Positions 41,876 to 60,661 of a stretch of DNA of 64,000 nt are shown here, in pieces. The notes beneath the pieces are model-generated. The model was not told the origin of the DNA. It searched no databases and saw nothing but the letters and a program-made list of their open reading frames with translations. A program made the translations under genes and the position numbers. Where the stretch lies: contig NZ_DASUNC010000017.1 of NCBI RefSeq assembly GCF_036277355.1, forward strand, positions 3,873 to 67,872, in the 5' to 3' direction. Within the stretch, counting starts at the first letter, position 1; every line of letters begins with the position of its first letter. This DNA is from Archangium sp. Its GTDB lineage: Bacteria; Myxococcota; Myxococcia; Myxococcales; Myxococcaceae.

Positions 41876-44800
41876 CGCGAGGCCCCCCGGATCACGTCGA
41901 GCGCGAAGGAGAATCCACTCTCGGCATCGAAGTTCCCGGAGCTTTCGAGCAGCAGGATGTGTTCGAGCAGGATCCGTTCGAGCGCCTGGAAGTGCTCCCA
42001 GGAATCCAGCTGAAGCTTGCGTGCGCCATCGCACAGCAGGAGCTCGCCGCCGGGAACGTACTCACGGATGGCTGGCATCAACCGCAGCTCCCGGAGATCC
42101 TTGCCGGCCCGTTGTGCCGGAGGGGCGATGGCGGGCAGCTCGAGCTCCTTCTGGAACAGCTGGGTGGACATGGCAACGGGCCTGACCTCGACCTGGACCA
42201 GCTCGTCCTTCTCGGTGGGGGGATAACGATGAACCCCGGCCTCGAGCGCCAGGAAGGCCCCCGCGTTCGTGCCGTTGACCAGGAGCAGTACCTCCCGGAA
42301 GGCCCGCGAGGGCGCGGCCAGCTCCTTCCGAAGCTGCTCCGCACCCAGCAGCTTGTCATCCCACTTGCGCTTGCGCTCGCTGCTCTTGTGGGTGACCGAG
42401 ACGCGGCCCTCGACCGTCCAGCCGCGCCGGGGCGCATCCTCGATCAGCGGCAGGATCCAGCGCTCGAGGCCGCGTGTCTCCCCCGCCTCCTGGAGGATGA
42501 GCGTGATCTGATCCCTCCGGGGCTGGAGCGCGAGCAGCACGGACGGCATCAGCTGGCGGATGGCCTTCATCTGCGCGTGGGCCTCGTCCACGAAGGGGGC
42601 GGCATCCTGCTGCTCGAAGAGCGCCATCAGCGCCAGCTCCTCGGCGGCCAGGAGCGATGCGCGCAACCGCCGGGCCTCGCTCCAGAGCGCCTCGAGCCGG
42701 CTGTGCTCGTACTGGAGTTGTCCCAGCGAGGACGCCTCGGGCCCTCGCATCTTCTTCTGATCTCCCTGGGCGAGCTGGGCCACCAGGAAGTGGATCCGCT
42801 CCCCCACGTTCTCCACGGCATCCATCCGGAAGAGCCTGTCGATGACCCGCCGCTGCTCCTGCAGGTCGCGCACGAGCTCGAGCTGGTTGCGCGCCGTCTT
42901 CGGGCTGCCCTTGGTCAGCTCCACGGCAATGCCCCCGGGACGGGAGGCGATCACCACACGGCCGCCCTGGGCCTCGGGCCCGGCCTCGGAGAGCATGCGG
43001 GCGATGGGGACGACGAGCTGCTGGTCCAGGTGCCTGCGCATGGCCCGGGCGCCATAGGCCTCCTGGTAGCCGGAGGTGGCGAGCGCGGTGGTGATCTCCG
43101 GAGGCACCTCGAGCGAGACCCCGCGCTGCATCAACCCGCGCCGCTGCCGCAGCTTGTCCACGCCGAGCCGGGCCACCTCCGCCGCCTGCTCGGGGGTGAG
43201 CGGGTGGAAGGGAATGAGCTGGTCGATGCGGTTGACGAACTCGGGGCGGAAGTGACGGTGCACCTCGCGCAGGTAGTACGAGGCGTCATCCACCGAGGTA
43301 GCGCCGATGCCCAGCGGGGAGCGGCGGTGCGCCACGCCGAGGTTGCTCGTCATGATGATGATGGCGTTGTGGAACCACGCCGTCTGCCCCCGGGCATCGG
43401 TGAGCCGCCCTTCCCCGCACACCTGCAGGAGCAGATCGAAGACGGCCGGGTGGGCCTTCTCGATCTCGTCGAGCAGGAGCACGCAGAAGGGCTGCTGGCG
43501 GACGCGGCGCGTGAGCAGCCCCTCGCCCTGGGTGTTGCCCCGGATGAGCCGTTCGGCGGCCCAGCCGTCCATGAACTCGCTCATGTCGAAGCGGAACATC
43601 CGCTCCGGCGAGCCGAAGAGGAACGTGGCGAGCAGCCGCGCGAGCTCGGTCTTCCCGACGCCGGTGGGGCCCACGAAGAGGAAGGTGGCCAGCGGCTTGC
43701 CCTGGGGCTGGAGGCCCGCCTTCACCATGCACAGCGTCTCCACGACGCGGCGCACCGCCGTCTCCTGGCCCACGAGCTGGCGGCGGAAGTGCGCCTCGAC
43801 CTCCCCGGCGAGCAGCGCGCGGTCCTCGCGCAACAGGAACTCGGGGACGCCCGTCTTGAGGCTGAAGAGCGAGTACACGCGCTCGCGGGTGAGCAGGGGC
43901 ACCTCGCCCGTGCCCGTGCGCTCCTGTTGCAGTCCCGCGCGCATCTCCTCGTACAACCGGATCGCCTTGCCGGGCAGCGCGCGGCTCGGCAGGTAGCGCT
44001 CGGCCAGGTCCACGAGCGGATCCACCGCGTCGTCGGCCAGCGAGTACCGCGAGGGCTCGGCCTTGCGTTGCCAGACCGTCCGGCTCCGGAGCGCCTCACG
44101 GGTCTGCCGCGTCCCCAGGGGCTCCAGGCGCACGCGGCCGAGCACCGCGAAGAGGCCCGGGTGCCGGTTCTCGAGCAGATCCAACGACTCGGGGGTGAGC
44201 TCTCCGAGGAACCGCACCCGGCCCTCCTCCAGGAAGGGCTTCATCGCGCCGGGGATGTCCACGTGCTCCGAGGACTGCTGCGCGAGCAGCTCCCCGAGGT
44301 TCTCGAAGTACAGGACGGCGTCGAGCTCCTGTGCCGCACGCATGACCCGCAGCACGCGCTCCTGCCACTGGCCGAAGCCGGACATGCCGGCGATCAACCG
44401 CGAGCCGCTCGTGGCGTACACGCGCCGCTCGCGGCCGGCCTTGCGCTCGGCGCGGAGCCACGCGAGGAGCAGCTCCGTCTTGCCCACGAGCTCCGGGCCC
44501 ACGAGCAGCACGCCCTGCCGCTTCTCGCCGCCGAGCAGGCCGGACAGCAGCGCGAGCTCGGTGTCCCGGGCGATGAGGGGCGGTCCGTGCCGGGCCTCGT
44601 CGCGATCATGCAGCACCGTGGAGACGGAGAGGAGCACCTGGTGCGCCTGCTCCCGCTTGAGCTTCTCCTCCAGCTTCTTCTTCGCCTGCCGGGCCTTGTC
44701 GCTCGCGTCCTGACGCCGGAGCGCGAGCTGGACGGTCTCGAGCGTCACGAACTTCGGAGGCAGCAGCCGCAGGTACTCATGGGCGGCCGGCTCGCGCGCG

Positions 44801-45234
44801 GCGAGCAACCGCTCCACGTCCGCGCGCACCGTCTCGCGCACGTCCTGGTTCCTGCCCACGTAGACCGTGTGATCGATCGCCGGCACGAAGACCCACGTCT
44901 CCTCCGCGAGCGGCACGACGATGGTGGCCAGCTCGACGGTGACGGGCTTGACGAGCTTCTTGGGGAGATCGGCGCGGGGGGCGAGGATCTCCAGCATCTC
45001 GAGCCGCACCTGCTCGGGGAAGGAGAAGCGGGCCAGCTCCTCGGGCTCCACCCTGGACAGGTGCTCCTCGAGGAACAGGCGCTGCTCGCCCAGACAGGCC
45101 TCGAGCGTGGGCGCGTGGCTCGTCAGGGTGGGCGCGGCCACGGGGAACACCTGGTGGTCCCCGTTCCACAGCTGCTGGCAGACGAGCGGCGTGGAGAACT
45201 CGAGCGTCCCGGGGACGGCATTGGAAGAAGCCAT
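41872..45234 (-). CDS. ClpA/ClpV-like double-AAA+ ATPase, paralog 1 (unrecognised ~240-aa N-domain; ~350-aa C-terminal extension)
   Basis: D1 VLLVGPELVGKTELL. D2 FLFVGPTGVGKTELARLLA, VLLLDEIEKAHPAVFDLLL, MTSNLG, FRPEFVNRID. It is the first gene of the three-gene unit. Confidence 0.8.
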   Translation of the reverse strand: MASSNAVPGTLEFSTPLVCQQLWNGDHQVFPVAAPTLTSHAPTLEACLGEQRLFLEEHLSRVEPEELARFSFPEQVRLEMLEILAPRADLPKKLVKPVTVELATIVVPLAEETWVFVPAIDHTVYVGRNQDVRETVRADVERLLAAREPAAHEYLRLLPPKFVTLETVQLALRRQDASDKARQAKKKLEEKLKREQAHQVLLSVSTVLHDRDEARHGPPLIARDTELALLSGLLGGEKRQGVLLVGPELVGKTELLLAWLRAERKAGRERRVYATSGSRLIAGMSGFGQWQERVLRVMRAAQELDAVLYFENLGELLAQQSSEHVDIPGAMKPFLEEGRVRFLGELTPESLDLLENRHPGLFAVLGRVRLEPLGTRQTREALRSRTVWQRKAEPSRYSLADDAVDPLVDLAERYLPSRALPGKAIRLYEEMRAGLQQERTGTGEVPLLTRERVYSLFSLKTGVPEFLLREDRALLAGEVEAHFRRQLVGQETAVRRVVETLCMVKAGLQPQGKPLATFLFVGPTGVGKTELARLLATFLFGSPERMFRFDMSEFMDGWAAERLIRGNTQGEGLLTRRVRQQPFCVLLLDEIEKAHPAVFDLLLQVCGEGRLTDARGQTAWFHNAIIIMTSNLGVAHRRSPLGIGATSVDDASYYLREVHRHFRPEFVNRIDQLIPFHPLTPEQAAEVARLGVDKLRQRRGLMQRGVSLEVPPEITTALATSGYQEAYGARAMRRHLDQQLVVPIARMLSEAGPEAQGGRVVIASRPGGIAVELTKGSPKTARNQLELVRDLQEQRRVIDRLFRMDAVENVGERIHFLVAQLAQGDQKKMRGPEASSLGQLQYEHSRLEALWSEARRLRASLLAAEELALMALFEQQDAAPFVDEAHAQMKAIRQLMPSVLLALQPRRDQITLILQEAGETRGLERWILPLIEDAPRRGWTVEGRVSVTHKSSERKRKWDDKLLGAEQLRKELAAPSRAFREVLLLVNGTNAGAFLALEAGVHRYPPTEKDELVQVEVRPVAMSTQLFQKELELPAIAPPAQRAGKDLRELRLMPAIREYVPGGELLLCDGARKLQLDSWEHFQALERILLEHILLLESSGNFDAESGFSFALDVIRGASR

Positions 45235-46435: not shown

Positions 46436-46639
46436 ATCCTCTCAATCCCGTGGTGGGGACACGAGGATGTGGAGGTCGGGCCACCGCTCGCGCAGGAGCC
46501 GCTCCAGCAGCCCGAGTCCCCACCGCTCCGAGCGCCAGCCCCATGCGGCACACGGGCTGTTCTCGCGCGACGACGATCCGGGTGCGCTCACCCGTCTCGG
46601 CGGAAGCACCCAGCAACTGGTCGATGTGCCCAGCGATCT

Positions 46640-46930
46640 CGTCAAGCCTCATGGTTGCAAGGATATCCACCCAATCCCTACCAATCCAGCAAAACGAATG
46701 TCTGTCTTTATCTAAATACATAAAAAACACATCAAATTATAGTTTGTATTTACTTAAAAAAGAAAAACATATCGTCACAATCACAAAAGACAAACATAGA
46801 CAAAAACAAATACAGACTTCCACTCCACAATCCCTGACAGGAAATCAAGACTATGGAATTAATTTCTGTATTTGATTGCTCCATTCTGACACACAAAAGA
46901 CGCCAATGTAAGTGCGACACACACCAGTTC
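46640..46930. other. AT-rich island (~35% GC, A/C-rich on the plus strand) within a ~70% GC context; non-coding
   Basis: Abrupt base-composition shift. No plausible ORF by codon usage. Lies between the M48 gene and the ceramidase-like gene. Confidence 0.5.
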
Positions 46931-46942
46931 TTGGGCATGAAG

Positions 46943-47058
46943 ATGTCGTGAGATGTAGGCATGATGGGGCTCAACAAAGAGGTCCCCCAGGTATGCTGAT
47001 GTAGGCACGATATCCGGACGGAGAGGGCCTGTCCGGGACGAGCCCATCGAGATGTAGG
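46943..47058. repeat. Three direct repeats of GATGTAGG(CA[CT]GAT), spaced 46 and 53 bp, immediately upstream of the ceramidase-like gene
   Basis: GAGATGTAGGCATGAT at 46950; CTGATGTAGGCACGAT at 46996; GAGATGTAGGTTCGAG at 47049. There is also a degenerate GATGTCGT at 46943. Confidence 0.4.
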
Positions 47059-48398: not shown

Positions 48399-49835
48399 AT
48401 GTCCTCCAGCGCGCGTTGGTTGTTGCTCCTGGTCCCCGGGATGTTGTTCTTCTACACCCTCAGCGGAGCACCCCGTGAAGCCGAGGCCGCCCCACGCGGT
48501 GGAGGGGTGTGCAAGAAGTGTCCGCCAGACGCGGGCACGGGCGGCTCCGATGCGGGCACTCCGGACGCGGGCACGGGTGGCTCGGACGCGGGCACGGGCT
48601 CGGATGCGGGTACTCCGGACGCGGGCACGGGCGGCTCGGACGGTGGCACGGTTCCGCCCACGGACTGCCTCGGCCAGCCGCTGCTCGATTCACTCGGGAA
48701 GGATCACGTGCTCGTCGGAGGACAGACGGACAGCTCCGTGGCCGGGCTGGCTCCGTTCGACATCCGATACATCTACCTCGCGGGTGGCCTGTTCGACAGC
48801 GCGGAGCCGTGCAACTCGTGCAGCACGAGCTGCTCCTCCGCCGGACAGTCCTGCTCCAACTGGAATCCCAATGGCTGCGGCTGGTGGGGGTGCTGGCAGT
48901 GGGACCAGATTCCTCCGGGGCAGTACCTGCGTGACTACTTCCAGCAGACGATCAATCTGGGACAGGTCCCGATGATCACCTATTACCAGATGCTCCACGC
49001 CAGCCGTGTCTCCGAGGGCTCGCCGGAGGTGGCCGCGGCGCAGACCGTCTCCTTGATGCAACGTTATTACAATGACTGGCGTTTCGTGTTGCAGCAGATT
49101 GGTACTTCCACCGCATTGCTTCACATCGAGCCGGACTTCTGGGCGTACGCGCAGCAGGTGAACACCAATCCTCACATGATTCCGGCGGCGGTCGCCTCGG
49201 CCAATCCCACGGATTGCGCGAACGTGGAGAACACCATCGCCGGCATGGGCCGCTGCATGATCGCCATGGTCCGCAAGTACGCCCCCAACGCCAAGGTGGG
49301 CCTGCATGCCTCGGCGTGGGCCACGAAGATCGACGCCATGATGAACACCAACCCCGCGCTCGACGTGGAGGGCGAGGCCCGCAAGGTGGCGGACTTCCTC
49401 AGGGAGTGCGGTGGCGCCAACGGGGACTTCGTCGTGGTGGAGACGAGCGACCGCGACGCCCAGTACTACCAGGTGCGTCTGGGCCGGAACAGCTGGTGGG
49501 ATACGGCCAACACCACGCTCCCACACTTCCGTCAGGCCTTCCGGTTCGCCAAGGCGCTCTCGGAGCGGATGGGCCGGCCCAACATCTGGTGGCAGATCCC
49601 CGTGGGCAACATGTCCATGCCCGGTTACGACCAGCACTGGAAGGACAACCGTCTGGACTACTTCTTCGATCACCCGCAGGAGGTGGCCGCCGCCCACGGT
49701 ATCGGCATGATCTTCGGCGCGGGCGAGCAGGCCCAGACGAACCCCTCCACCGACAGCGGGCACCTGGTGCTGCGGACGAACAACTACTTCCTCACTGGTG
49801 GGCAGCCCGCCTGCCTCAACGCCAGCATGCCCTGA
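48399..49835 (+). CDS. Secreted protein with Gly/Asp/Ala/Thr-rich repeat linker and Cys-rich segment; possible TIM-barrel glycosidase-like domain
   Basis: Signal peptide MSSSARWLLLLVPGMLFFYTLSG; (DAGTGGS/DAGTP)x4 linker; CNSCSTSCSSAGQSCSNWNPNGCGWWGCWQW; ~330-aa C-terminal domain (HIEPDFWAYAQQ, VVETSDRDAQYY). Confidence 0.7.
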   Translation: MSSSARWLLLLVPGMLFFYTLSGAPREAEAAPRGGGVCKKCPPDAGTGGSDAGTPDAGTGGSDAGTGSDAGTPDAGTGGSDGGTVPPTDCLGQPLLDSLGKDHVLVGGQTDSSVAGLAPFDIRYIYLAGGLFDSAEPCNSCSTSCSSAGQSCSNWNPNGCGWWGCWQWDQIPPGQYLRDYFQQTINLGQVPMITYYQMLHASRVSEGSPEVAAAQTVSLMQRYYNDWRFVLQQIGTSTALLHIEPDFWAYAQQVNTNPHMIPAAVASANPTDCANVENTIAGMGRCMIAMVRKYAPNAKVGLHASAWATKIDAMMNTNPALDVEGEARKVADFLRECGGANGDFVVVETSDRDAQYYQVRLGRNSWWDTANTTLPHFRQAFRFAKALSERMGRPNIWWQIPVGNMSMPGYDQHWKDNRLDYFFDHPQEVAAAHGIGMIFGAGEQAQTNPSTDSGHLVLRTNNYFLTGGQPACLNASMP

Positions 49836-50135: not shown

Positions 50136-51131
50136 TCAGCCCAGGTGCTGCAGCTCGCGCGAGAGCTGGGTCTCCAGGTCCCGGATGTTGCGGTACACGA
50201 GGCAGCGGTAGGCCGCGACGTCGAACTTGAGTTCCTTGAGATCGCGGACGAGCAGGATGGTGGGCCGTCCCCTGCCCCACGCGTAGCCGACCTCCAGGTA
50301 CACGTTGGGGTTGGCCATGGACAGGTCCGCGATGACGACCTTCGCGGTGTCGATGCGCTCCTTGATCCGCTGGATGATGGCGCCCTCGAACACGGCTTGA
50401 TCCACGCGCTCGCACAGGAGCCCCGCGCCCTTCACGGGGCCCAGGATGCCGTAGTGGTAGACGTCCTCCATCTCGGAGGCGAAGGGCATGGCGACGAAGG
50501 CGTGGGGCTTGGCCAGCGACTGCGCCCCGGCCGTGGCCATGGGCGGCGCCTGGACGTGCTGGCTCGTGCGCTTGACGCGGAAGCCCCAGCCGCTCGTCAG
50601 GGGCTCCACCCCCGGGCTCTTCCCGAGTCCCCGCTCCAGCGCCGTGCGAAGCCGGTCCGCCCGCTTCTGCTGCAGCTCCACCACGGTGATGCGCTCCAGC
50701 CCCTGGGGCCCGGCACCCCGCATGAAGGCCTCGACGAGGCCTCCGACGAGCGCGAGCGCCGCCTCGTCCTCGTCCAGGCCGTAGTTGGGGCCGTGCACCG
50801 TGCAGGCGACGTGGCGGATGTCCGGGCGCGACTCGAGCGCCTTGAGCGCCCGGGCCGCGAACTGGCGAATCTCGTGGTAGCCGAACTTCCCCAGCTTCAC
50901 GGTGCCGAGGAAGAGGGCCAGGGGCGCGCCGATGGCGCCTCGCGTCTCGATGAAGACATGCTCCCCGATGGGCACCGAGAAGCTCGCCATCGGGATGCCC
51001 GCCTGGACGAGCCGCGAGGCCACGGCCTGATCCGCGCCGTAGAAGCTCTGGGCGTGCTTGAGCAGCACCACGTCCGCGCGCGTATCGGTGATGTTTCCGG
51101 CTTCCAGAACGAGATCGAGGGCAGCGCTCAT
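50136..51131 (-). CDS. Two-domain protein: unknown N-domain + C-terminal nucleoside 2-deoxyribosyltransferase-like/TIR-like domain
   Basis: C-terminus HAFVAMPFASEMEDVYHYGILGPV...AKVVIADLSMANPNVYLEVGYAWGRGRPTILL matches the NDT/Rcl-like signature (FxAxPF; D-x-N; E-x-G-Y-A; GKP-x-I). Lies 16-34 nt downstream of rtcA on the same strand. Start is ATG 51131 or GTG 51149. Confidence 0.65.
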   Translation of the reverse strand: MSAALDLVLEAGNITDTRADVVLLKHAQSFYGADQAVASRLVQAGIPMASFSVPIGEHVFIETRGAIGAPLALFLGTVKLGKFGYHEIRQFAARALKALESRPDIRHVACTVHGPNYGLDEDEAALALVGGLVEAFMRGAGPQGLERITVVELQQKRADRLRTALERGLGKSPGVEPLTSGWGFRVKRTSQHVQAPPMATAGAQSLAKPHAFVAMPFASEMEDVYHYGILGPVKGAGLLCERVDQAVFEGAIIQRIKERIDTAKVVIADLSMANPNVYLEVGYAWGRGRPTILLVRDLKELKFDVAAYRCLVYRNIRDLETQLSRELQHLG

Positions 51132-51165
51132 CGGGAGGGACTGTCTCACGGAGGGGGCGGGCCCG

Positions 51166-52239
51166 TCACCGGGGCGCGACCTCGACCGCGCCTCCCGGCT
51201 CCACCGTCACGCGCACGGGCAGGAAGCGCTCGATGAGCCACGCGTGCGTGGTGAGGTGCTCCGTCACCCGCGCCGTCGTGTAGCGCGTCGTCCCCGGAGA
51301 CGAGGGGCCCAACAGGCCCGCCGCCAGCAGCGCCGCGGGCAGGAGGATCTGATCCCCGAGGTGCTCGTCCAGCGCGCCCCCGCTCTCCATGAAGCGCGCC
51401 ACCTCCTCCGCCGCCTCGCGCCCCACGTCCTCCGCGGGAAGTCCCCGCTTCCCCAGGGCCGTGAAGCCGGCGAGGGTGTTCTCGAACTGCGCCAGGATGA
51501 ACGTCACCGTGCCCACCGAGTGCGTCACCGGCAGCGGCCGGTTCTCCGCGTGGCTGTAGATGCCCCGCTCGCGCAGCGCCGCCACCGCCGCCTTGGACTG
51601 ACGCTCCGCGATGCCAAAGGGCAACCCGCCCACGAACGAGCCCACCGCGATGTCCCGCAGCGTCCCGCGGGAGGGCAGCTCCACCCGGTTCGGTGGATCC
51701 CTCACCGGCTCCACCTCGGCGATGAACTCTCCCGCCCCCTGCGGGTAGAAGCCCGCGTGCACCAGGCGCAACGAGGCGTTCAGCCCGTAGGCCTTCGCCA
51801 CCGGCAGCCACACCCCCACCACGTAGTGGTAGCTGGGGCTGTGCGGCAGGTGCGTCCCCCCGCGCAGGGTGAGCGAGCCGCCCCCCGCCAGCGCCAGCGG
51901 GTAGAAGAGGCACTGGAAGAGCAGCGGCGTGCTGCCCGCCGTCCCCACCTCCAGCACGTAGTTGCCCGGGTGCACCGGCCCCGGCTCGAAGCGCAGCTCC
52001 GAGGCGCCCACCGCCGCGCCCTCGCTCTGGCCCCCGCTGATGGCCTCCGCGCCCCGCACGCAGGCGAGGTGCTGCGGCCTCAACCCCGGCGGCTGGCGGT
52101 GGGCCCGCACGTTCTTCATGTGGAAGGGCCTCCCGGTGATGAGCGACAGCGAGAGCGCCGAGCGGAGGATCTGCCCTCCTCCCTCCCCCTCGCTTCCGTC
52201 GAGCTCCACCGGTCCGTCGTGGCGGTCCGTGCCTGCCAT
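51166..52239 (-). CDS. rtcA: RNA 3'-terminal phosphate cyclase
   Basis: [32 protein letters not shown] is colinear with E. coli RtcA ([27 protein letters not shown]). ATG at 52239 with a GGAGGGGAAGGGG SD; the track's 52476 extension is a Gly/Asp/Glu-rich artefact. Confidence 0.85.
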   Translation of the reverse strand: [357 protein letters not shown]

Positions 52240-54460: not shown

Positions 54461-56323
54461 TCAGAACAGCACCAGCTCCTCGTGAGGCTCCAACGTCTCC
54501 CCGTGGACGTGGGGATGCCCTCCGAGGAGGGCCTCGTTGCTGCGCTGGCGGGCCTCGGAGAGCTCGGAAACGAGCTCGAGGATCTGCGGGTGGGTGAGGA
54601 TGAGGGTGTCGAAGTCCTCGCGGGGCAGCCGCAGCAGCGAGGTGTTGCGGGCGGCCGTCACGGTGGCGTTGGCGGGCGTCTTCTGCAGCAGGGACATCTC
54701 GCCGAACAGCTCGCCCTCGTGCAGCCGGGCCAGGGACTGCTCGCCCTTGGTGACGGCCACCTCGCCGGAGAGCACCACGTAGAGGCCGTCCACCTGGTGG
54801 CCCTCGTGGATGATGGTGTCGCCCCGGCGCACCTCGCGGGCCCGGAAGCGCTCCACCAGCTCGCGCCGATCCTTGCGGCCGAAGGGCTGGAAGATCGCCG
54901 AGGTGTTCACCACGTCCGACAGCAGCCGCTGCCGGCAGAAGCGCCTCAGCGCCCGGGCCACCTGCGGGTAGCTGCGCGAGAGGCCCGCGAGCACCGGCGC
55001 GGAGATCTCCAGCACCTGCGTCTCCTCGGAGGCGCTCACCACCGAGGCCGAGCGCGGCGCGCCCGACAGCAGCGCCATCTCACCGAAGAAGGCGCCCTCG
55101 CCCAGCTGGGCCAGCTCGCGCTGCTCGCCGCCGGCCTGGCGCACGATGCGCACCCGGCCCGCGCAGATGACGTAGAAGGCATCGCCCTTGGTGCCCTGCT
55201 CGATGATGCGTCCGCCCTCGGGGAAGCGGCGCAGCGGGCAGCGCTCGAACAGCGCGATGAAGGCGTCGCGCGGCAGGTCCGAGAAGAGCGGAATCTTCGG
55301 CAGCGCCTCGTCCTGGGGGGCCGCCTCGGCGATGGGCTCCTCGGCCTCCGGCGTGCCCGGCTCTTCCATCGCGGGGGCGGACGCCACGGGTTCCGCGAGC
55401 TGCCCCGCGCCCGCGAGTGCCGCCAGCTCCACCGCGTGCAGCAGCGAGTCCGCCTGGACGGCCAGCTCCGTGAAGGGCGTGCTGCCCGGCACCGGAGGCT
55501 GGAAGTCCACGCCGTCCTGGGGCGTGAAACGCTCGAGGCGCGGCGAAGCGGGGCCCACCGCCGCCACCCGGAGGGGCTGGGGCGGAGGCTCGGGTGTGGC
55601 GGGCGCGGGGTTCGGCTCCATCTCCGTCACGGCCGGACGGAGGTCGCTCGAACGGCGGCGCAGACCGGGAGGCCCGGACTTCGCCACGGCGGCCTGGGCG
55701 GGCGCGGCCTCCGGGCTCCCCTCCTCCGCGCCGCTGAGATCCAGCTCCACCTCGATGTCCGCCGCGGGCGCGGCGGGAGGCTCGGCCCCCGTCTCCTCGA
55801 TGTCCAGCTCCACCTCGATGCCCGACAGGGACGAGGCGGCCTTGAACCCGGGCGCGGGCGTGGGCGCGGGCTCCCGGGCGGACGCCTCCTCCGAGGCCAG
55901 GGCCTCGTCGACGTCCGGCGGCAGCTCGATGAAGAACGCGGACGGCTTCGCCACCGGAGGCGCTTCCAGGGGCTTGGGCGTCACCGCGCGAGCCGCGCCT
56001 CCCGCTCCACCCCGGCGGGCGTAGAGGTTGGCGAGCATCTGCTGCACGCCCTGGTGCGACGCATCCAGCTCCAGGATGAGCTTGCTGGCGGCGATGGCGC
56101 GCGGGAGGAACCCCTCGCGGGCGAAACCCTCGGCGGCGGCCTGGTAGGCGGAGATGGCGCGGGCGTTCTCGCCCACCTTCACCCAGGCATCTCCCAGCCG
56201 CACGCGCGCCTGGTGGTCCTTCGGGTCCAGCTGACAGTATTCCTCGAAGAGCTCGGCGGCCCGGGCAAAGCGTCCCTTGGTGAGGGCTTCGTTGGCTTTG
56301 TCCCTGAGCTGCCGTGGCTCCAT
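54461..56323 (-). CDS. TPR-repeat protein with two cyclic-nucleotide-binding (cNMP) domains
   Basis: N-terminal TPRs; an acidic Pro/Ala-rich linker; two CAP-family cNMP domains (GEGAFFGEMALLSGAPRSASV and HEGELFGEMSLLQKTPANATV). Confidence 0.8.
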   Translation of the reverse strand: MEPRQLRDKANEALTKGRFARAAELFEEYCQLDPKDHQARVRLGDAWVKVGENARAISAYQAAAEGFAREGFLPRAIAASKLILELDASHQGVQQMLANLYARRGGAGGAARAVTPKPLEAPPVAKPSAFFIELPPDVDEALASEEASAREPAPTPAPGFKAASSLSGIEVELDIEETGAEPPAAPAADIEVELDLSGAEEGSPEAAPAQAAVAKSGPPGLRRRSSDLRPAVTEMEPNPAPATPEPPPQPLRVAAVGPASPRLERFTPQDGVDFQPPVPGSTPFTELAVQADSLLHAVELAALAGAGQLAEPVASAPAMEEPGTPEAEEPIAEAAPQDEALPKIPLFSDLPRDAFIALFERCPLRRFPEGGRIIEQGTKGDAFYVICAGRVRIVRQAGGEQRELAQLGEGAFFGEMALLSGAPRSASVVSASEETQVLEISAPVLAGLSRSYPQVARALRRFCRQRLLSDVVNTSAIFQPFGRKDRRELVERFRAREVRRGDTIIHEGHQVDGLYVVLSGEVAVTKGEQSLARLHEGELFGEMSLLQKTPANATVTAARNTSLLRLPREDFDTLILTHPQILELVSELSEARQRSNEALLGGHPHVHGETLEPHEELVLF

Positions 56324-56324
56324 G

Positions 56325-58430
56325 TCAGTGTGCCCCCTCGGCCGCGGTCGTCGTCTTGGCCAACGCCGTCACCGCGGCCTCTCGGACCCGACGGTAGTAG
56401 TCACTCTTGAGCGCGTCCAGTGCATCGGCCTGGGCGCCGGTGCCCATCTTCGTGAGCGCCCCCGCCGCCGCGGCCCGGATCTCCGGCAGATCATGGTACA
56501 GGTCGCGCGCCACCACCTCGGCCGCCGAGGTGTCGCCGATCTCCCCCAGGGCGGTGAGCAGCTCGCGCCGGCCAACGCCCGAGGGCTCCTCCAGCGCCTT
56601 CACCAGCGTGGGCACCGCCTCCTTCGCCTTCAGCCGGCCCAGCAGCGTGGCGGCCAGCACCACCTCGGGGCCGCCGTCGGAGACGACCTTCTGGAGCTCG
56701 CCCGCCGCGGAGGCCGGCGCGCCCGCCTTCACGAGCGCATCGAGCACCACCAGCTTCTCGCCGTGGATCTGCGGCAGCAGCTCCACCAGCGCGGATCGTC
56801 CGGCCTCGCCCTGCTCGGCGAGCGCCTGGGCCAGGGCCTTCACCAGCTCGCGCTCGGCCTCGAACAGGCCGTTCTTGGCGAGCGCCACGCCCTCGGGCCC
56901 CAGCCGCGTCAGGCCCACCAGGGCGGCGGTGCGCACCGTCACGCTGGAGTCACCGGCGAAGCTCTTGAGCAGCTCCAGCGCCCCGGGCGCCTTCACGGAC
57001 CCGAGCGCGCGCAGCAGCCCGGCCAGCGGCTCGAGCTTGCTCGAGTCCACGTCATCGAACAGCTCGGCGGGCGCGCGCTGCTGCACCACGGGCCGGCCCT
57101 GCTCGCGCGCCTTGGCCGCGTTGAGCGCCTTCACGCGGGCCATGAGGCTGGCGTGCTTCTCGCGCTTCGGATTGTCACCGCTCCCCGGCTGGGAGGGATC
57201 GAACCCCGGCCCGTAGCGCTCGGGCAGCTTCAGGGTGACCCAGTCCTGGCGGAGCGCCTGCGCGGCCGCGAGCTCCTGCTCGAAGGCCTTCTGCAGCACG
57301 GGCGCCGCGGAGGACTCCCCGATGGCCGCGGCCGCGTCCACGGCGAGCGCGCGCAGCGTGGCATCGCCCTGGGTGATGTAGGGCAACACCTTGGGGAGCA
57401 GATCCCTGGCCGCGGGGCCGAGGCCGATCACCACCTGCAGTCCGCCCGCGGCGGTGGAGGGACGCGCCAGGCGCTCGACGATGGGCTCCACGGGGCAGCC
57501 GCCGCGCTCGCGCATGGCCCGGGCGACGGGGATGGCCTCACTGGTCTCGGCGTCGAGCGCGATGGAGCACAGCGCGGCATCCGTCTGGGGCTGGCGCGGC
57601 ATGTCGAGCAGGGCGTCGATGGCCAGGGGGCTCACGGAGCTCTTCTCCACCGCCACGGCCTGGAGCCGGGGAATGGCCTGGGGCTCCTGCAGCCGCGTGA
57701 GGGCGGTGATGGCGGACTCGCGCAGCTCGGGGAAGCTCTCGTCGAGCAGGGGCAGGATGGCCTGCACGGCGCGCTTGTCGCCCAGGTCCCCCAGGCCGCG
57801 CACCGCGGCGGCGGCGAGGACGACCTGGCTGTCGCGCACCAGGGGCACCAGCCGGTTGAAGGCATCCGGACGGCCGCTCTTGCCCAGCTCCTCGGCGGCG
57901 CCCACGCGCTCGGGCAGCGAGCCCTCGTTGAGGGTCAGCAGGTTGCGCTCCCAGATGGCCTTGGACTCGGCGGCGACGACCTCGGCCATGGCGCCCGGCA
58001 CGTTGGCCTGCTTGAGGGCCTGGACGATCACCTGGCGCGTCTGACGGCCGCGGCGGCCGTACTGCAGCGTGAGGTAGGCCTTGGCCTTGTCGTTCTTCAC
58101 CTGCGCCAGGGCCATGGCCGCCTGACCCTGCACGTCCACGTCGGAGTCCTCGAGCAGCTCGCCGAGCAGATCCACCACGCGGGGATCCTGGCTCTTGCCG
58201 AGGGCGGAGGCGGCCTCGCCGCGGACGATGGAGGCCATGTCCTTGGCGGCACGGGTGAAGAGGGCCAGGTCGTCGGGACGGGCGTCCTCGGCGAGCTTCT
58301 TCACGGCGAGAGCCCTCACCTCGGGGCGAGGGCTCTGCAGATCCGCGAGGAGCTGATCCCGGCTCCCACTGCACCCGGCGGTGGCGAGAAGGGACAGGAC
58401 GACAAGGAAGGTGCGCGCGCCGGTTCGCAT
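56325..58430 (-). CDS. HEAT-repeat (PBS-lyase-type) lipoprotein
   Basis: Lipobox LLATAGC|SG, then more than 12 HEAT-like repeats (..VR..A..ALG.IGD..A...L..LL.D.). Its stop abuts the downstream start (TGAcATG). Confidence 0.75.
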   Translation of the reverse strand: MRTGARTFLVVLSLLATAGCSGSRDQLLADLQSPRPEVRALAVKKLAEDARPDDLALFTRAAKDMASIVRGEAASALGKSQDPRVVDLLGELLEDSDVDVQGQAAMALAQVKNDKAKAYLTLQYGRRGRQTRQVIVQALKQANVPGAMAEVVAAESKAIWERNLLTLNEGSLPERVGAAEELGKSGRPDAFNRLVPLVRDSQVVLAAAAVRGLGDLGDKRAVQAILPLLDESFPELRESAITALTRLQEPQAIPRLQAVAVEKSSVSPLAIDALLDMPRQPQTDAALCSIALDAETSEAIPVARAMRERGGCPVEPIVERLARPSTAAGGLQVVIGLGPAARDLLPKVLPYITQGDATLRALAVDAAAAIGESSAAPVLQKAFEQELAAAQALRQDWVTLKLPERYGPGFDPSQPGSGDNPKREKHASLMARVKALNAAKAREQGRPVVQQRAPAELFDDVDSSKLEPLAGLLRALGSVKAPGALELLKSFAGDSSVTVRTAALVGLTRLGPEGVALAKNGLFEAERELVKALAQALAEQGEAGRSALVELLPQIHGEKLVVLDALVKAGAPASAAGELQKVVSDGGPEVVLAATLLGRLKAKEAVPTLVKALEEPSGVGRRELLTALGEIGDTSAAEVVARDLYHDLPEIRAAAAGALTKMGTGAQADALDALKSDYYRRVREAAVTALAKTTTAAEGAH

Positions 58431-58498: not shown

Positions 58499-60661
58499 TC
58501 AGCGGCCCTTGCGAGGGCCCCCTCGGCCCCTGGGCGCCCCAGCGCCGCGAGGACCGCCGGCCCCCCGGGGACCACCAGCGCCTCGGGGACCACCGGCACC
58601 CCGGGGACCACCAGCGCCTCGGGGAGCCCGGGAGTTCCACTCGGAGGAGGGACCCGGCTTCTTCGCGCGCCAGTTCACGAAGGACTTCGAGCCCTCGCCA
58701 GCCTCCTCGCCTCCCGGGCGTGCCGCACCGCGGCGCTCCTCACTACCCCGAGGACCCGCGCCGAACGGCTTGCGCGCGGGACGCTCACCGCGCTCCTCGC
58801 CACCGCGAGGCGACCACTCGCGGCGCTCCGGACGGGGCCCACGCGAGGGAACCCGGCGCTCGGCGCTCGGATTCGACGCGAAGGGGCTGCTGCGTTCCGG
58901 ACGGCCACCGGCATCCTCGCCGAAGGACCTGCGCGCGGGACGAGCACCCCGCTCCTCACCACCGCGAGGCGACCACTCCCGGCGCTCCGGCCGGCCACCC
59001 GCGCTCGCGCCGAACGGCTTGCGAGCAGGACGCTCACCGCGCTCCTCACCACCCCGAGGACCCGCGCCAAACGGCTTGCGAGCAGGACGCTCACCGCGCT
59101 CCTCGCCACCGCGAGGCGACCACTCCCGGCGCTCTGGACGGCCACCCGCGCCCGCGCCGAACGGCTTGCGAGCAGGACGCTCAGCGCGCTCCCCACCACC
59201 CCGAGGACCCGCGCCAAACGGCTTGCGAGCAGGACGCTCTCCGCGCTCCTCACCACCCCGAGGCGACCACTCCCGGCGCTCCGGCCGGCCACCCGCGCCC
59301 GCGCCGAAGGACTTCCGGGCAGGACGCTCTCCGCGCTCCTCACCACCCCGAGGACCCGCGCCAAACGGCTTGCGAGCAGGACGCTCACCCCGCTCCTCAC
59401 CACCCCGAGGACCCGCGCCGAACGGCTTGCGCGCAGGACGCTCACTCCGCTCCCCACCACCCCGAGGCGACCACTCCCGGCGCTCCGGACGGGCACCCGC
59501 CCCCGCACCGAACGACTTACGGGCAGGACGCTCACTCCGCTCGCCACGCTCCTCCCGCTCGGGACGGCTGCTCGGAGTCTCCTCGCTCTCGACCTCGTCC
59601 TCGCCGGGCGTCCACGTCCCACGGCGCTCGGCTCCACGGCCCGCCGCGCCACGGAACGCCGGACGGGAACCGCCCTCGCCACGCGGGGCGAACGTCTTGC
59701 GCGCGGGAGCACCCGCCGCGGCTCGCGCCGGACGCTCCGACTTCACACCCTTGCGCTCGGGACGCTCCGTCCGGGCGGCCTCACGGGGCGCGGGCTTCGC
59801 CGCCGCACGCGACCGGGCCGGCGCGGGAGGCGCCTCGTCACCGAAATCATCGTCATCCAGGTCCGCCTCCGCGAAGCCCGGGGCCGAGCGCCCATGGCGC
59901 CGCGGCGGCAACCGCAGCTCGCGCTCCGGCGGCGAGGCCTTCCCGTCCGCCACCTCCTGCAGCATGCGCACCTGGCTCTCCGACAGCGGCCGCAGCTCGC
60001 CCGGGCGCAGGCCCTCGACGGTGATGCCCGCGTAGGAGGGCCGGAACAGCCGCACCACCGGGGCCCCCACCGCGGCGCACAGCCGCTTGATGAGGTGCGG
60101 GCGGCCCTCGGCCACCACCAGCTTCAGCCACGTGTTGCGCTCGGCCTGCTCGAAGACGTCCACGGACAGCGGCGTGGCCATGCCGTCCTCCAGCCGCACG
60201 CCGCCGCGCAGCTTCTCCAGCGTGGCCGCGTCCGGCGAGCCCTTCACCTTCGCCAGGTACGTGCGCGGCACCTGGAAGCTCGGGTGCGTCAGCTTGTGCG
60301 CCAGCGCCCCGTCGTCCGTGACGAGCAGCGCCCCCTCGGCGTCGTAGTCCAGCCGGCCCACCGGGAAGAGCCGCTTGCCGGTCTCCTCGATGTAGTTGGC
60401 CACCGTGGGCCGCCCCTGGGGATCCGAGAGCGTCGTCACGACGCCCACCGGCTTGTAGAGCACGTAGTAGGTGGACTCCTCCGGCGGCGAGACGAGCTTG
60501 CCGTCCACCGTCACCAGGTCTCCCGGGGACACCTTGGAGCCCAGCTCGGTCACCTTCTCGTTGTTCACCGTGACGCGGCCCTCGGTGATGAGTTCTTCCG
60601 CGTGCCGCCGGGAGGCCACGCCCGCGCGGGCCAGGTACTTCTGCAATCGTTCAGACGCCAT
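58499..60661 (-). CDS. rluB: 23S rRNA pseudouridine synthase RluB-type (S4 + RsuA/RluB catalytic domain) with ~390-aa Arg/Gly/Glu-rich repetitive C-terminal tail
   Basis: S4 domain LQKYLARAGVASRRHAEELI; catalytic VGRLDYDAEGALLVTDDG; then ~10 repeats of ERPARKPFGAGPRGGEERG and a terminal (GPRGAG)n. Confidence 0.8.
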   Translation of the reverse strand: MASERLQKYLARAGVASRRHAEELITEGRVTVNNEKVTELGSKVSPGDLVTVDGKLVSPPEESTYYVLYKPVGVVTTLSDPQGRPTVANYIEETGKRLFPVGRLDYDAEGALLVTDDGALAHKLTHPSFQVPRTYLAKVKGSPDAATLEKLRGGVRLEDGMATPLSVDVFEQAERNTWLKLVVAEGRPHLIKRLCAAVGAPVVRLFRPSYAGITVEGLRPGELRPLSESQVRMLQEVADGKASPPERELRLPPRRHGRSAPGFAEADLDDDDFGDEAPPAPARSRAAAKPAPREAARTERPERKGVKSERPARAAAGAPARKTFAPRGEGGSRPAFRGAAGRGAERRGTWTPGEDEVESEETPSSRPEREERGERSERPARKSFGAGAGARPERREWSPRGGGERSERPARKPFGAGPRGGEERGERPARKPFGAGPRGGEERGERPARKSFGAGAGGRPERREWSPRGGEERGERPARKPFGAGPRGGGERAERPARKPFGAGAGGRPERREWSPRGGEERGERPARKPFGAGPRGGEERGERPARKPFGASAGGRPERREWSPRGGEERGARPARRSFGEDAGGRPERSSPFASNPSAERRVPSRGPRPERREWSPRGGEERGERPARKPFGAGPRGSEERRGAARPGGEEAGEGSKSFVNWRAKKPGPSSEWNSRAPRGAGGPRGAGGPRGAGGPRGAGGPRGAGAPRGRGGPRKGR
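58730..59570 (-). repeat. In-frame ~81-bp tandem repeats (~10 copies) encoding the RluB C-terminal tail
   Basis: Repeated DNA unit ...cgctcctcaccaccccgaggacccgcgccaaacggcttgcgagcaggacgctcacc... with minor variants. Confidence 0.6.

What the first reader, a model, noticed from the sequence alone, without database searches (positions are those of the whole stretch)
50136..52239. rtcA followed by a nucleoside-2-deoxyribosyltransferase/TIR-like two-domain protein instead of rtcB
RNA 3'-phosphate cyclase normally pairs with the RtcB ligase. Here rtcA is followed, after a 16-34 nt gap, by a 330-aa protein. Its C-terminal ~130 aa carry the NDT/Rcl/TIR-like signature (FVAMPF...DLSMANPNVYLEVGYAWGRGRPTILL). 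Its N-terminal ~180 aa are unassigned. NDT-like and TIR-like domains process nucleotides or NAD, and they recur in RNA-repair and conflict systems. This may be a non-canonical RNA-end healing or nucleotide-signalling module.
Basis: partly seen in the sequence, partly recalled or inferred. Interest (0 to 1): 0.6.

Follow-up and report, generated by a model that had tools for sequence, protein, structure and literature searches.

The report
Macro plus NDT-like protein beside rtcA
The gene after rtcA encodes a two-domain protein, a divergent Macro fold plus an NDT/TIR-like N-glycosidase domain. It belongs to a large uncharacterised family that other bacteria fuse to immune-type domains, and its position next to rtcA is a local accident, not an RNA-repair partnership.

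Summary
A bona fide rtcA (51166-52239, minus strand) is followed after 34 nt by a 331-aa gene (50136-51131) whose C-terminal domain is NDT/MilB/TIR-like with the conserved Glu.

The proposed link to RNA-end healing does not hold:
- rtcA lies within 6 kb in only 7 of 80 loci that encode the protein, all Archangium or Vitiosangium.
- It is directly adjacent in only one of those. The other six have 0.75-3.2 kb between the two genes, and four of them carry opposite-strand ORFs there.
- M. xanthus, Stigmatella and Melittangium have a solitary rtcA with no rtcB beside it.

The protein belongs to a large family: 1040 clusters at 50% identity match the Macro-like profile. Wherever the representative is long enough to judge, the two domains occur together. 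About a third of representatives carry extra N-terminal domains: TIR, EAD1, bacterial Death-like or CHAT. EAD7 is an insert within the NDT-like domain.

The most likely function is a ligand-sensing Macro-like domain joined to a nucleotide or NAD+ N-glycosidase, that is, an NAD/ADP-ribose conflict or signalling module. This is inferred, not shown. The family is uncharacterised. I rate interest as moderate.

The parts
51166..52239 (-). rtcA, RNA 3'-terminal phosphate cyclase (357 aa). The histidine equivalent to E. coli His309 is residue 328 (nt 51256-51258).
   Evidence: Pfam RTC 3.4e-68 plus RTC_insert. TIGR03399 scores above its cutoff. Alignment to E. coli RtcA 3kgd/1qmh. Translation check.
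51132..51165 (-). 34-nt spacer between the rtcA stop codon and the ATG of the downstream gene. In sister genomes this same point holds 0.75-3.2 kb of variable DNA.
   Evidence: Sequence. blastn breakpoints fall at window 51168-51175 in L003, L004 and L006-L009. ORF content of the inserts. No promoter-like or terminator-like site in the spacer.
50136..51131 (-). Gene for the 331-aa two-domain protein (Macro-like plus NDT/DrHyd-like). It is the orthologue of M. xanthus MXAN_3123.
   Evidence: ORF. 2403 homologues, with start codon and length conserved. AlphaFold2 model with mean pLDDT 84.5.
50562..51131 (-). N-terminal divergent Macro-fold domain, residues 1-190. Conserved motifs are D20-x4-K25-x-A27-Q-x3-G32-x-D34 (nt 51030-51074) and T111-x-H113-G-x3-G118-L-D120-E-x-E123 (through E121 = nt 50769-50801; E123 lies at 50763-50765).
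50514..50561 (-). Low-confidence linker, residues about 191-206.
   Evidence: pLDDT below 50 for residues 191-206. This stretch varies in length and sequence in the alignments.
50139..50513 (-). C-terminal NDT/MilB/DrHyd-like (TIR-related) domain, residues 207-331. It carries PHAFVAMPF (nt 50481-50507) and NPNVYLEVGYAWG (nt 50274-50312). The candidate catalytic Glu280 is at nt 50292-50294.

Best explanation
Two functionally unrelated genes lie next to each other here.

(1) rtcA is an ordinary RNA 3'-phosphate cyclase. In the three relatives checked outside this clade (M. xanthus, Stigmatella, Melittangium) it is a solitary gene.

(2) The downstream gene encodes the minimal form of a widespread, uncharacterised two-domain module. 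The module is a divergent Macro-fold domain followed by an NDT/DrHyd-type (TIR-related) domain that keeps the family's conserved Glu.

Proposed mechanism (inferred):
- The Macro-like domain binds an adenine- or ADP-ribose-containing ligand. It acts either as a sensor or as a substrate anchor.
- The C-terminal domain cleaves an N-glycosidic bond of NAD+ or another nucleotide through Glu280, probably as an oligomer.
- The protein would then be a ligand-controlled NADase or nucleotide N-glycosidase of the NAD/ADP-ribose conflict and signalling world. It is not an RNA-end-healing enzyme.

Shown: domain folds, motif conservation, family size, alternative architectures, and lack of conserved linkage to rtcA.
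Inferred: the ligand, the substrate and the biological role.
For: Folds:

Sequence:
- PF05014 is hit by 23 of 23 diverse members, and PADLOC 'Effector/TIR' by 23 of 23 at down to 3e-16.
- NPNVYLEVGYAWG, including the Glu, is invariant from Myxococcota to Chloroflexota, Acidobacteriota, Bacteroidota, Leptonemataceae and a Methanosarcina MAG.

Family and architectures:
- 1040 clusters at 50% identity match the Macro-like profile.
- The two domains are coupled wherever the representative is long enough to judge.
- 48 of 150 top representatives have N-terminal extensions: TIR_2 in 35, EAD1 in 3, CHAT in 2, bDLD1 in 1 and HSP70 in 1. EAD7, also seen in 3, is an insert within the NDT-like domain.
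- One CHAT-fused member lies beside an nSTAND1-WD40 gene.
- The Glu is kept in 47 of 51 two-domain forms but in only 21 of 38 N-extended forms, mostly changed to Gln (hand tally of the motif table). This fits the NDT-like domain being the catalytic effector when no TIR is fused.

Published views: DrHyd, TIR and Macro domains are treated as NAD+/ADPr-processing effectors and sensors in conflict systems (PMC9503650, PMC7159879). A Macro domain acts as the sensor of TIR-made ADPr signals in Thoeris (PMC11204291).

Against an rtcA link.
Against: - No biochemical data exist for any member. No paper mentions MXAN_3123.
- The two-domain form looks like a vertically inherited single-copy chromosomal gene in Myxococcaceae. 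Its synteny is conserved (up to 26 loci share neighbours). Its neighbours elsewhere are ordinary metabolic genes. No full-length copy was found on plasmids or phages. All of this is atypical for mobile defence genes.
- The Macro-like domain lacks the MacroD Asn and has a shortened Gly loop. ADP-ribose binding is therefore not assured.
- It also shows faint sequence similarity to the non-ADPr-binding N-terminal domain of M17 aminopeptidases.
- PF05014 scores fall below the gathering cutoff.
- In this strain the 34-nt gap makes co-transcription with rtcA likely. A strain-specific functional coupling cannot be excluded.
Confidence: 0.55

Rival explanations
1. One reading: rtcA and the NDT/TIR-like protein form a non-canonical RNA-end-healing or RNA-linked nucleotide-signalling operon, with the downstream protein replacing RtcB.
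For: The two genes are on the same strand with a 34-nt gap and no terminator-like or promoter-like site between them. The same adjacency occurs in A. lansingense (L005). Macro domains are known to process ADPr-1''-phosphate, a by-product of Tpt1/KptA RNA 2'-phosphate removal (background in PMC9503650).
Against: - rtcA is within 6 kb in only 7 of 80 loci, all in one genus-level clade. Six of those seven have 0.75-3.2 kb between the genes, and four carry opposite-strand ORFs there.
- rtcA is absent within 6 kb in the closest relative, L002.
- M. xanthus MXAN_3123 is nowhere near rtcA.
- rtcA in M. xanthus, Stigmatella and Melittangium is solitary.
- No neighbour is shared across phyla.
- The module's recurrent fusion partners are TIR, EAD, Death-like and CHAT domains, not RNA-repair domains.
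Confidence: 0.05
2. The protein is a housekeeping nucleotide-metabolism enzyme. It would be a (d)NMP or nucleoside N-glycosidase or transferase like Rcl, MilB or NDT, or an ADP-ribose catabolic enzyme. The Macro-like domain would be a second catalytic or substrate-binding domain with no role in conflict or signalling.
For: - The C-terminal domain is closest in fold to MilB and the NDTs, and the only Pfam hit is PF05014.
- In Myxococcaceae the gene appears single-copy and vertically inherited with conserved synteny.
- Neighbours in distant genomes are amidases, SDRs, cyclases and similar, with no defence hallmark enriched.
- It was not found full-length on plasmids or phages.
- The protein is about 67% identical between Archangium and Myxococcus, which looks like steady purifying selection.
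Against: - The same two-domain module is fused to TIR, EAD1, EAD7, bDLD1 and CHAT in about a third of representatives. That is typical of conflict-system effectors, not of salvage enzymes.
The family looks patchy rather than universal.
- The best sequence profile match is a defence-system effector model.
Confidence: 0.25
3. The Macro-like domain is the enzyme, for example a de-ADP-ribosylase or ADPr-derivative hydrolase. The NDT-like domain is a non-catalytic nucleotide-binding or oligomerisation domain.
For: - The Macro-like domain is the most invariant part in all architectures. K25, A27, Y85, H113, G114 and D120 are invariant, and D20, D34, E121 and E123 nearly so.
- The NDT-like Glu is lost in 17 of 38 N-extended forms.
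- The G-x-G-L-D motif in loop 2 recalls the catalytic loop of TARG1-type macro domains. This is recalled from memory and was not tested.
Against: - The Glu and its surrounding 13-residue motif are essentially invariant in the two-domain form (47 of 51). This argues for catalysis in the NDT-like domain there.
- The MacroD catalytic Asn is replaced by Ala, and the Gly-rich loop 1 is shortened.
Confidence: 0.15

Closest known systems
E. coli/Salmonella rtcBA (RtcR-regulated) RNA repair operon
   Same: The upstream gene is a true RtcA orthologue. It has the RTC and insert domains, scores above the TIGR03399 cutoff, and keeps the histidine equivalent to His309.
   Different: No rtcB motif was found in the 64-kb window. 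There is no RtcR beside rtcA; the divergent neighbour is a CitMHS/ArsB permease. rtcA is solitary in M. xanthus, Stigmatella and Melittangium. The downstream gene is not an RNA ligase.
NDT / Rcl (DNPH1) / MilB-BcmB nucleotide N-glycosidases (PF05014; the 'DrHyd' superfamily of Aravind and co-workers)
   Different: It scores just under the Pfam gathering cutoff (25-27 bits against 28.8). It is fused to a Macro-like domain. The Asp that precedes the Glu in NDTs appears to be replaced by Asn-Pro-Asn (from memory of the NDT motif). The substrate is unknown.
TIR-domain NADase effectors of bacterial immunity (CBASS/Pycsar TIR effectors, ThsB)
   Different: There is no hit to the Pfam TIR, TIR_2 or ThsB_TIR models for the window protein. 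The fold is closer to NDT/MilB than to TIR. No cyclase, SAVED or other partner gene lies nearby.
Macro-domain Thoeris (ThsB TIR plus ThsA Macro effector; PMC11204291)
   Same: It combines a Macro-fold domain with a TIR-class N-glycosidase fold. 35 of the 48 N-terminally extended representatives (of 150 listed) add a bona fide TIR_2 or ThsB-like TIR in front of the module. The logic of a Macro sensor for an ADPr-derived signal is a plausible analogy.
   Different: It is one polypeptide, not two genes. It has no transmembrane effector part. No PADLOC Thoeris model matched. The Macro-like domain is a sequence orphan with an altered loop 1. The gene shows vertically inherited synteny in Myxococcaceae.
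EAD/Death-like-adaptor and STAND-NTPase conflict systems of multicellular bacteria (Kaur et al. 2020, PMC7159879; Kaur et al. 2021, PMC8195603)
   Same: Family members are fused to EAD1, EAD7, bDLD1, CHAT and TIR. One lies next to an nSTAND1-WD40 gene. These papers list DrHyd and Macro among the effector domains of such systems. The taxa overlap: Myxococcota and Chloroflexota.
   Different: The window protein has no EAD or Death-like adaptor and no STAND neighbour. The fixed Macro-like plus DrHyd pair was not described in the passages I could read.

Membership tests
RtcA, RNA 3'-terminal phosphate cyclase | RTC domain with inserted RTC_insert domain | tested here: met
   PF01137 3.4e-68 over profile positions 2-221 of 221. 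PF05189 2.2e-16.
RtcA, RNA 3'-terminal phosphate cyclase | Score above the curated equivalog cutoff | tested here: met
   TIGR03399 scores 317.8 bits against a cutoff of 250.05. NF003246 scores 330 against 352, just below.
RtcA, RNA 3'-terminal phosphate cyclase | Adenylylated histidine (E. coli His309; its role is recalled from the literature) | tested here: met
   His328 of the window protein aligns with His328 of chain 3kgd, which is native His309 by the 19-residue offset relative to 1qmh.
rtcBA-type RNA repair operon | rtcB (and often rtcR) encoded next to rtcA | tested here: not met
   No RtcB signature motif occurs in the six-frame translation of the window (motifs from memory). The flanking genes are a CitMHS permease and the Macro/NDT-like gene. 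rtcA is also solitary in three other myxobacterial genomes.
Hypothetical 'rtcA plus NDT-like' functional module | Conserved linkage of the two genes across genomes | tested here: not met
   rtcA is within 6 kb in 7 of 80 loci, all in one clade, and adjacent in 1. No neighbour is shared across phyla.
Nucleoside 2-deoxyribosyltransferase family (PF05014) / DrHyd superfamily | Match to the Pfam model at the gathering score | tested here: not met
   25.2 bits for the full protein and 27.0 bits for the domain alone, against 28.8. All 23 diverse members hit at about 1e-6.
Nucleoside 2-deoxyribosyltransferase family (PF05014) / DrHyd superfamily | NDT-type Rossmannoid fold | tested here: met
Nucleoside 2-deoxyribosyltransferase family (PF05014) / DrHyd superfamily | Conserved Glu in the strand-4/helix motif (nucleophile or general base) | tested here: met
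   Glu280 aligns with the Glu of MilB 'HVEIGWA'. It is invariant in 23 diverse sequences and kept in 47 of 51 two-domain representatives.
Nucleoside 2-deoxyribosyltransferase family (PF05014) / DrHyd superfamily | N-glycosidase or transglycosylase activity | not testable with these tools
   This needs enzyme assays.
TIR domain NADases | Match to the TIR Pfam models (PF01582, PF13676, PF08937) | tested here: not met
   No hit at E<=1 for the window protein. Only weak PF10137 hits (best 0.012) in 8 of 23 members.
TIR domain NADases | Match to a defence-effector TIR profile | tested here: inconclusive
   PADLOC PDLC00733 'Effector/TIR' at 3.4e-14, but over only 79 residues (profile positions 285-363 of 388).
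Macro domain (ADP-ribose binding or hydrolysing) | Macro fold | tested here: met
Macro domain (ADP-ribose binding or hydrolysing) | Match to the Pfam Macro models | tested here: not met
   No Macro family hit for 27 diverse N-terminal domains at E<=10. There are only faint Peptidase_M17_N hits in 2 of 27. The profile against PDB gave LAP at 0.07 and the PARP15 macro domain at 1.2.
Macro domain (ADP-ribose binding or hydrolysing) | MacroD catalytic and binding motifs (NAAN Asn, GGG loop 1, G-x-Y/F-G loop 2, adenine-contact Asp) | tested here: inconclusive
   hhalign to E. coli YmdB gave E 1.5e-3 and probability 17%. The Asp of 'VDVIV' is kept (D20), Asp35 is kept (D34) and the Tyr-Gly of loop 2 is kept. 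Asn25 is replaced by Ala27, and the Gly loop is three residues shorter.
Macro domain (ADP-ribose binding or hydrolysing) | Binding of ADP-ribose or a derivative | not testable with these tools
   This needs ITC, DSF or co-crystal experiments.
Thoeris (type II, Macro-ThsA plus TIR-ThsB) | Separate adjacent thsA and thsB genes; match to Thoeris models | tested here: not met
   No Thoeris model was hit in PADLOC. There is no TIR gene among the window neighbours or among the top 25 families of 111 neighbours in 31 distant loci.

The most novel reading that the evidence does not exclude
The Macro-like plus NDT/DrHyd-like pair is a previously undescribed, self-contained sensor-effector module, in effect a 'single-chain Thoeris-like' unit. 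A new class of Macro-fold sensor would bind an ADP-ribose-derived signal and switch on a Glu-dependent NADase or nucleotide N-glycosidase. Myxococcaceae would have fixed the minimal form as a core chromosomal gene, possibly for phage defence or developmental or kin-related cell death. Other bacteria would plug the same module onto TIR, CHAT, EAD and Death-like domains.
Probability: 0.25. Interest if true: 0.65.

Novelty: new variant of a known kind. Interest (0 to 1): 0.38.

Why it matters
The rtcA angle does not matter: it is a lineage-specific juxtaposition.

The downstream protein is more useful. It is the minimal form of a large family (about 1000 clusters at 50% identity) that has no Pfam or NCBIfam model for its N-terminal domain and no experimental work. 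The family has an almost invariant catalytic-type motif across many phyla. It combines two folds that are central to NAD+/ADP-ribose immune signalling.

If the Macro-like domain is a sensor for an ADPr-derived messenger and the NDT-like domain is an NADase, this would add a new effector architecture to bacterial TIR/Thoeris-type immunity. It would also give a tractable test case in M. xanthus (MXAN_3123). If it is instead a salvage enzyme, it would define a new substrate class for the NDT/Rcl/MilB family.

Tried and rejected
I repeated it with A5, built from the window and listed proteins.
- Genomic context of the TIR-, EAD1- and EAD7-fused members: the contigs were 1.4-2.6 kb and gave nothing. 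Only the CHAT-fused member had usable context.
- Literature: no paper mentions MXAN_3123. One search failed on term length. Papers on RtcA neighbourhoods and on NAD/ADPr systems gave background, but no description of this two-domain pair in the passages read.
- Rfam and tRNA scans of the whole window found nothing.
- The promoter and terminator scan of the locus found nothing relevant.
- Mobile defence island: rejected for the two-domain form. There is no conserved or defence-enriched neighbourhood, and no full-length copy on plasmids or phages.
Full report
**1. The observation**

The window is about 70% G+C. The flagged region holds two minus-strand ORFs.

The upstream one, 51166-52239 (357 aa), is RtcA:
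- Pfam RTC 3.4e-68 with the RTC_insert domain.
- NCBIfam equivalog TIGR03399 at 317.8 bits against a cutoff of 250.
- 1.5e-55 to E. coli RtcA structures. His328 (nt 51256-51258) aligns with the histidine that is His309 in native E. coli numbering.

The rtcA stop codon is at 51166-51168. The next ORF can begin at GTG 51149 or ATG 51131. Homologues all begin at the equivalent of the ATG. The product is therefore 331 aa and the spacer is 34 nt.

The quoted motifs are present: PHAFVAMPF and NPNVYLEVGYAWG.

**2. What the downstream protein is**

An AlphaFold2 model built on 32 homologues has mean pLDDT 84.5. It shows two domains joined by a disordered linker at residues 191-206.

*N-terminal domain (residues 1-190).*
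- By sequence it is an orphan. No Pfam or NCBIfam family matches it, even when 27 cross-phylum members are scanned at E<=10.
- A profile search of PDB finds only an M17 aminopeptidase N-domain (E 0.07) and a PARP15 macro domain (E 1.2).
A profile-sequence alignment to it runs over 152 columns with E 1.5e-3 but only 17% probability.
- That alignment suggests the following. The Asp of 'VDVIV' is kept as the near-invariant D20. Asp35 is kept as D34. The Tyr-Gly of loop 2 is kept as Y117-G118. The MacroD Asn25 is replaced by the invariant Ala27. The Gly-rich loop 1 is three residues shorter.
- Across phyla and architectures K25, A27, Y85, H113, G114 and D120 are invariant, and D20, D34, E121 and E123 nearly so.

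*C-terminal domain (residues 207-331).*
- It matches PF05014 just below the gathering score, and all 23 diverse members do the same.
- It matches a PADLOC 'Effector/TIR' profile at 3e-14 to 3e-16.
- Glu280 aligns with the conserved Glu of MilB.
- The motif A-N-P-N-V-Y-L-E-V-G-Y-A-W-G is invariant from Myxococcota to Chloroflexota, Acidobacteriota, Bacteroidota, Leptonemataceae, Gallionellales and a Methanosarcina MAG.

**3. Is the rtcA pairing real?**

A scan of one genome per species recovered relatives of the protein in 535 of 599 matching stretches. The best 80 were kept with 6-kb flanks.

- tblastn with the window RtcA finds rtcA in only seven of these loci (L003-L009), all Archangium or Vitiosangium.
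- Only A. lansingense (L005) is collinear with the window.
- In the others, nucleotide homology breaks exactly between the rtcA stop and the start of the downstream gene. There 0.75-3.2 kb is inserted.
- The inserted content differs by genome (the calls rest on a crude GC3 heuristic). L004 and L009 have a same-strand lipoprotein gene. L003 and L008 have an opposite-strand ORF; the L003 call may be a remnant. L006 has an opposite-strand cupin plus a 589-aa protein. L007 has several genes on both strands.
- A. violaceum Cb vi76 (L002), whose protein is the closest match of the loci (98% identical), has no rtcA within 6 kb.
- M. xanthus MXAN_3123 sits between unrelated genes.
- Clustering all flanking ORFs shows synteny only within genera. 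No neighbour family is shared with non-Myxococcaceae loci.
- A Pfam scan of 111 neighbours from 31 distant loci hit 123 different families, none in more than four proteins.
- From the rtcA side, rtcA in M. xanthus, Stigmatella and Melittangium is a solitary gene. It has no rtcB and no Macro/NDT-like gene beside it. Stigmatella and Melittangium share the upstream CitMHS/ArsB permease seen in the window.
- No RtcB signature was found in the window.

The juxtaposition is therefore confined to one lineage and is not conserved even there. It lies at a junction that gains and loses genes. In this strain the 34-nt gap probably allows read-through transcription. Nothing indicates a shared function.

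**4. The family and its architectures**

A profile of the Macro-like domain was run against 1.84 billion cluster representatives. It gave 1040 hits at E<=1e-3 and 266 at E<=1e-30.

Among the best 150:
- The Macro-like domain is followed by the NDT-like domain wherever the representative is long enough to judge.
- About two thirds are two-domain proteins of roughly 330 aa, like the window's, or fragments of them.
- 48 have N-terminal extensions. These are TIR_2 in 35 (13 of which also match ThsB_TIR), EAD1 in 3, CHAT in 2, bDLD1 in 1 and HSP70 in 1.
- EAD7, also seen in 3, sits as an insert within the NDT-like domain in the two examples inspected.
- The one fused member with usable context (CHAT-fused, L086) lies 0.5 kb downstream of an nSTAND1-WD40 gene.

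The Glu of the NDT-like motif is kept in 47 of 51 two-domain representatives. It is kept in only 21 of 38 extended ones, where it is most often Gln (my hand tally of the motif table).

Full-length copies are absent from the phage and plasmid collections. Only the C-terminal domain has relatives there, at 30-38% identity, in Staphylococcus and Streptococcus phages and on diverse plasmids.

**5. Most likely mechanism**

*Established background.* TIR, DrHyd (NDT-like) and SLOG form one clade of N-glycosidic-bond-cleaving or nucleotide-binding Rossmannoid domains. In conflict systems DrHyd and TIR act as NADases or signal generators, and Macro domains process or sense ADPr derivatives (PMC9503650; PMC7159879). 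In Macro-type Thoeris a Macro domain senses a TIR-made ADPr conjugate (PMC11204291).

*Inference for this protein.* The Macro-like domain binds an adenine- or ADPr-type ligand. The NDT-like domain uses Glu280 to cleave an N-glycosidic bond of NAD+ or another nucleotide. The relaxation of the Glu when a TIR is fused fits the two catalytic domains being functionally interchangeable effectors, with the Macro-like domain as the constant part.

*Counter-evidence.* The two-domain form looks like a vertically inherited gene with ordinary neighbours. A housekeeping nucleotide or ADPr-metabolic role therefore remains a serious rival (confidence 0.25). The Macro-like domain's altered loop 1 means the ligand may not be plain ADP-ribose.

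**6. Comparison, novelty and score**

- rtcA is a known gene.
- The downstream protein is not a member of PF05014 by the curated cutoff. It is not a Pfam TIR and not a Pfam Macro. It shares the folds and the key Glu.
- I found no description of the fixed Macro-like plus DrHyd pair in the papers I could search.
- I file it as a new variant of a known kind, namely NAD/ADPr-centred N-glycosidase effector modules.
- Interest is moderate (0.38). The flagged RNA-repair idea is not supported. The protein family is large, uncharacterised and experimentally approachable.

Noticed in passing
window 51132-51165; L003 5202-5957, L004 2527-3862, L006 3682-5997, L007 2775-5990, L008 4962-5982, L009 4700-6000: The point between the rtcA stop and the downstream gene is an indel hotspot within Archangium and Vitiosangium. 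The window and A. lansingense have nothing there. Other genomes have a roughly 400-aa lipoprotein gene, a cupin plus a 589-aa protein, or several genes on both strands. The 394-aa and 589-aa products have no Pfam match.
   Followed up: partly
window 48399-49835 (+), repeat at 48528-48651: A 478-aa secreted-looking protein with no Pfam family and an N-terminal 'DAGTGGS/DAGTP' tandem repeat (period 54 nt). The gene is present in L003-L006 and L008 but missing from L002 and L009, so it is a second presence/absence polymorphism right next to the Macro/NDT-like gene.
   Followed up: partly
window 58930-59533 (also 58539-58625): A long, very GC-rich (about 75%) tandem array with nested periods of 57, 90, 147 and 204 nt, upstream of the HEAT-repeat gene. 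The strand and frame of the coding sequence it belongs to were not resolved.
   Followed up: no
window about 46450-47050: A locally AT-richer, apparently non-coding stretch between the M48 peptidase gene and the ceramidase-family gene. The 46-48 kb bin is 64% G+C against about 70% elsewhere. It has no Rfam or tRNA hit.
   Followed up: partly
L026 (BNCN01000010.1 'Comamonas sp. KCTC 72670'); L050, L051, L055 ('uncultured Enterobacterales' MAGs): Records labelled Comamonas and Enterobacterales carry relatives of the protein. L026 is 69% identical, in the same band as the Myxococcus and Corallococcus loci. L050, L051 and L055 are 50-51% identical. L050 and L051 also gave identical match coordinates and neighbour calls. 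These look like mislabelled or contaminated assemblies and a duplicated contig.
   Followed up: no
phage hits H1-H10 (for example OM439673.1 8387-8734; NC_048635.1 33264-33611): Temperate Staphylococcus and Streptococcus phages encode an unannotated protein about 30% identical to the NDT/TIR-like C-terminal domain (residues 202-313). This is probably the 'distinct TIR version of small Firmicutes phages' mentioned in PMC9503650.
   Followed up: no
P0165 (719 aa); L086 1360-5688: An HSP70 fused to the Macro-like domain; the protein ends at the end of that domain and may be truncated. Separately, a CHAT, Macro-like and NDT-like protein lies just downstream of an nSTAND1-WD40 gene, which may be a complete STAND-type conflict locus.
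   Followed up: partly
window 41872-45234 (-) and 54461-58430 (-): The neighbourhood also holds a 1120-aa ClpB-like AAA+ protein with a long non-Clp C-terminal half, a TPR protein with two cNMP-binding domains, and a 701-aa HEAT-repeat protein. None is linked to RNA repair.
   Followed up: no
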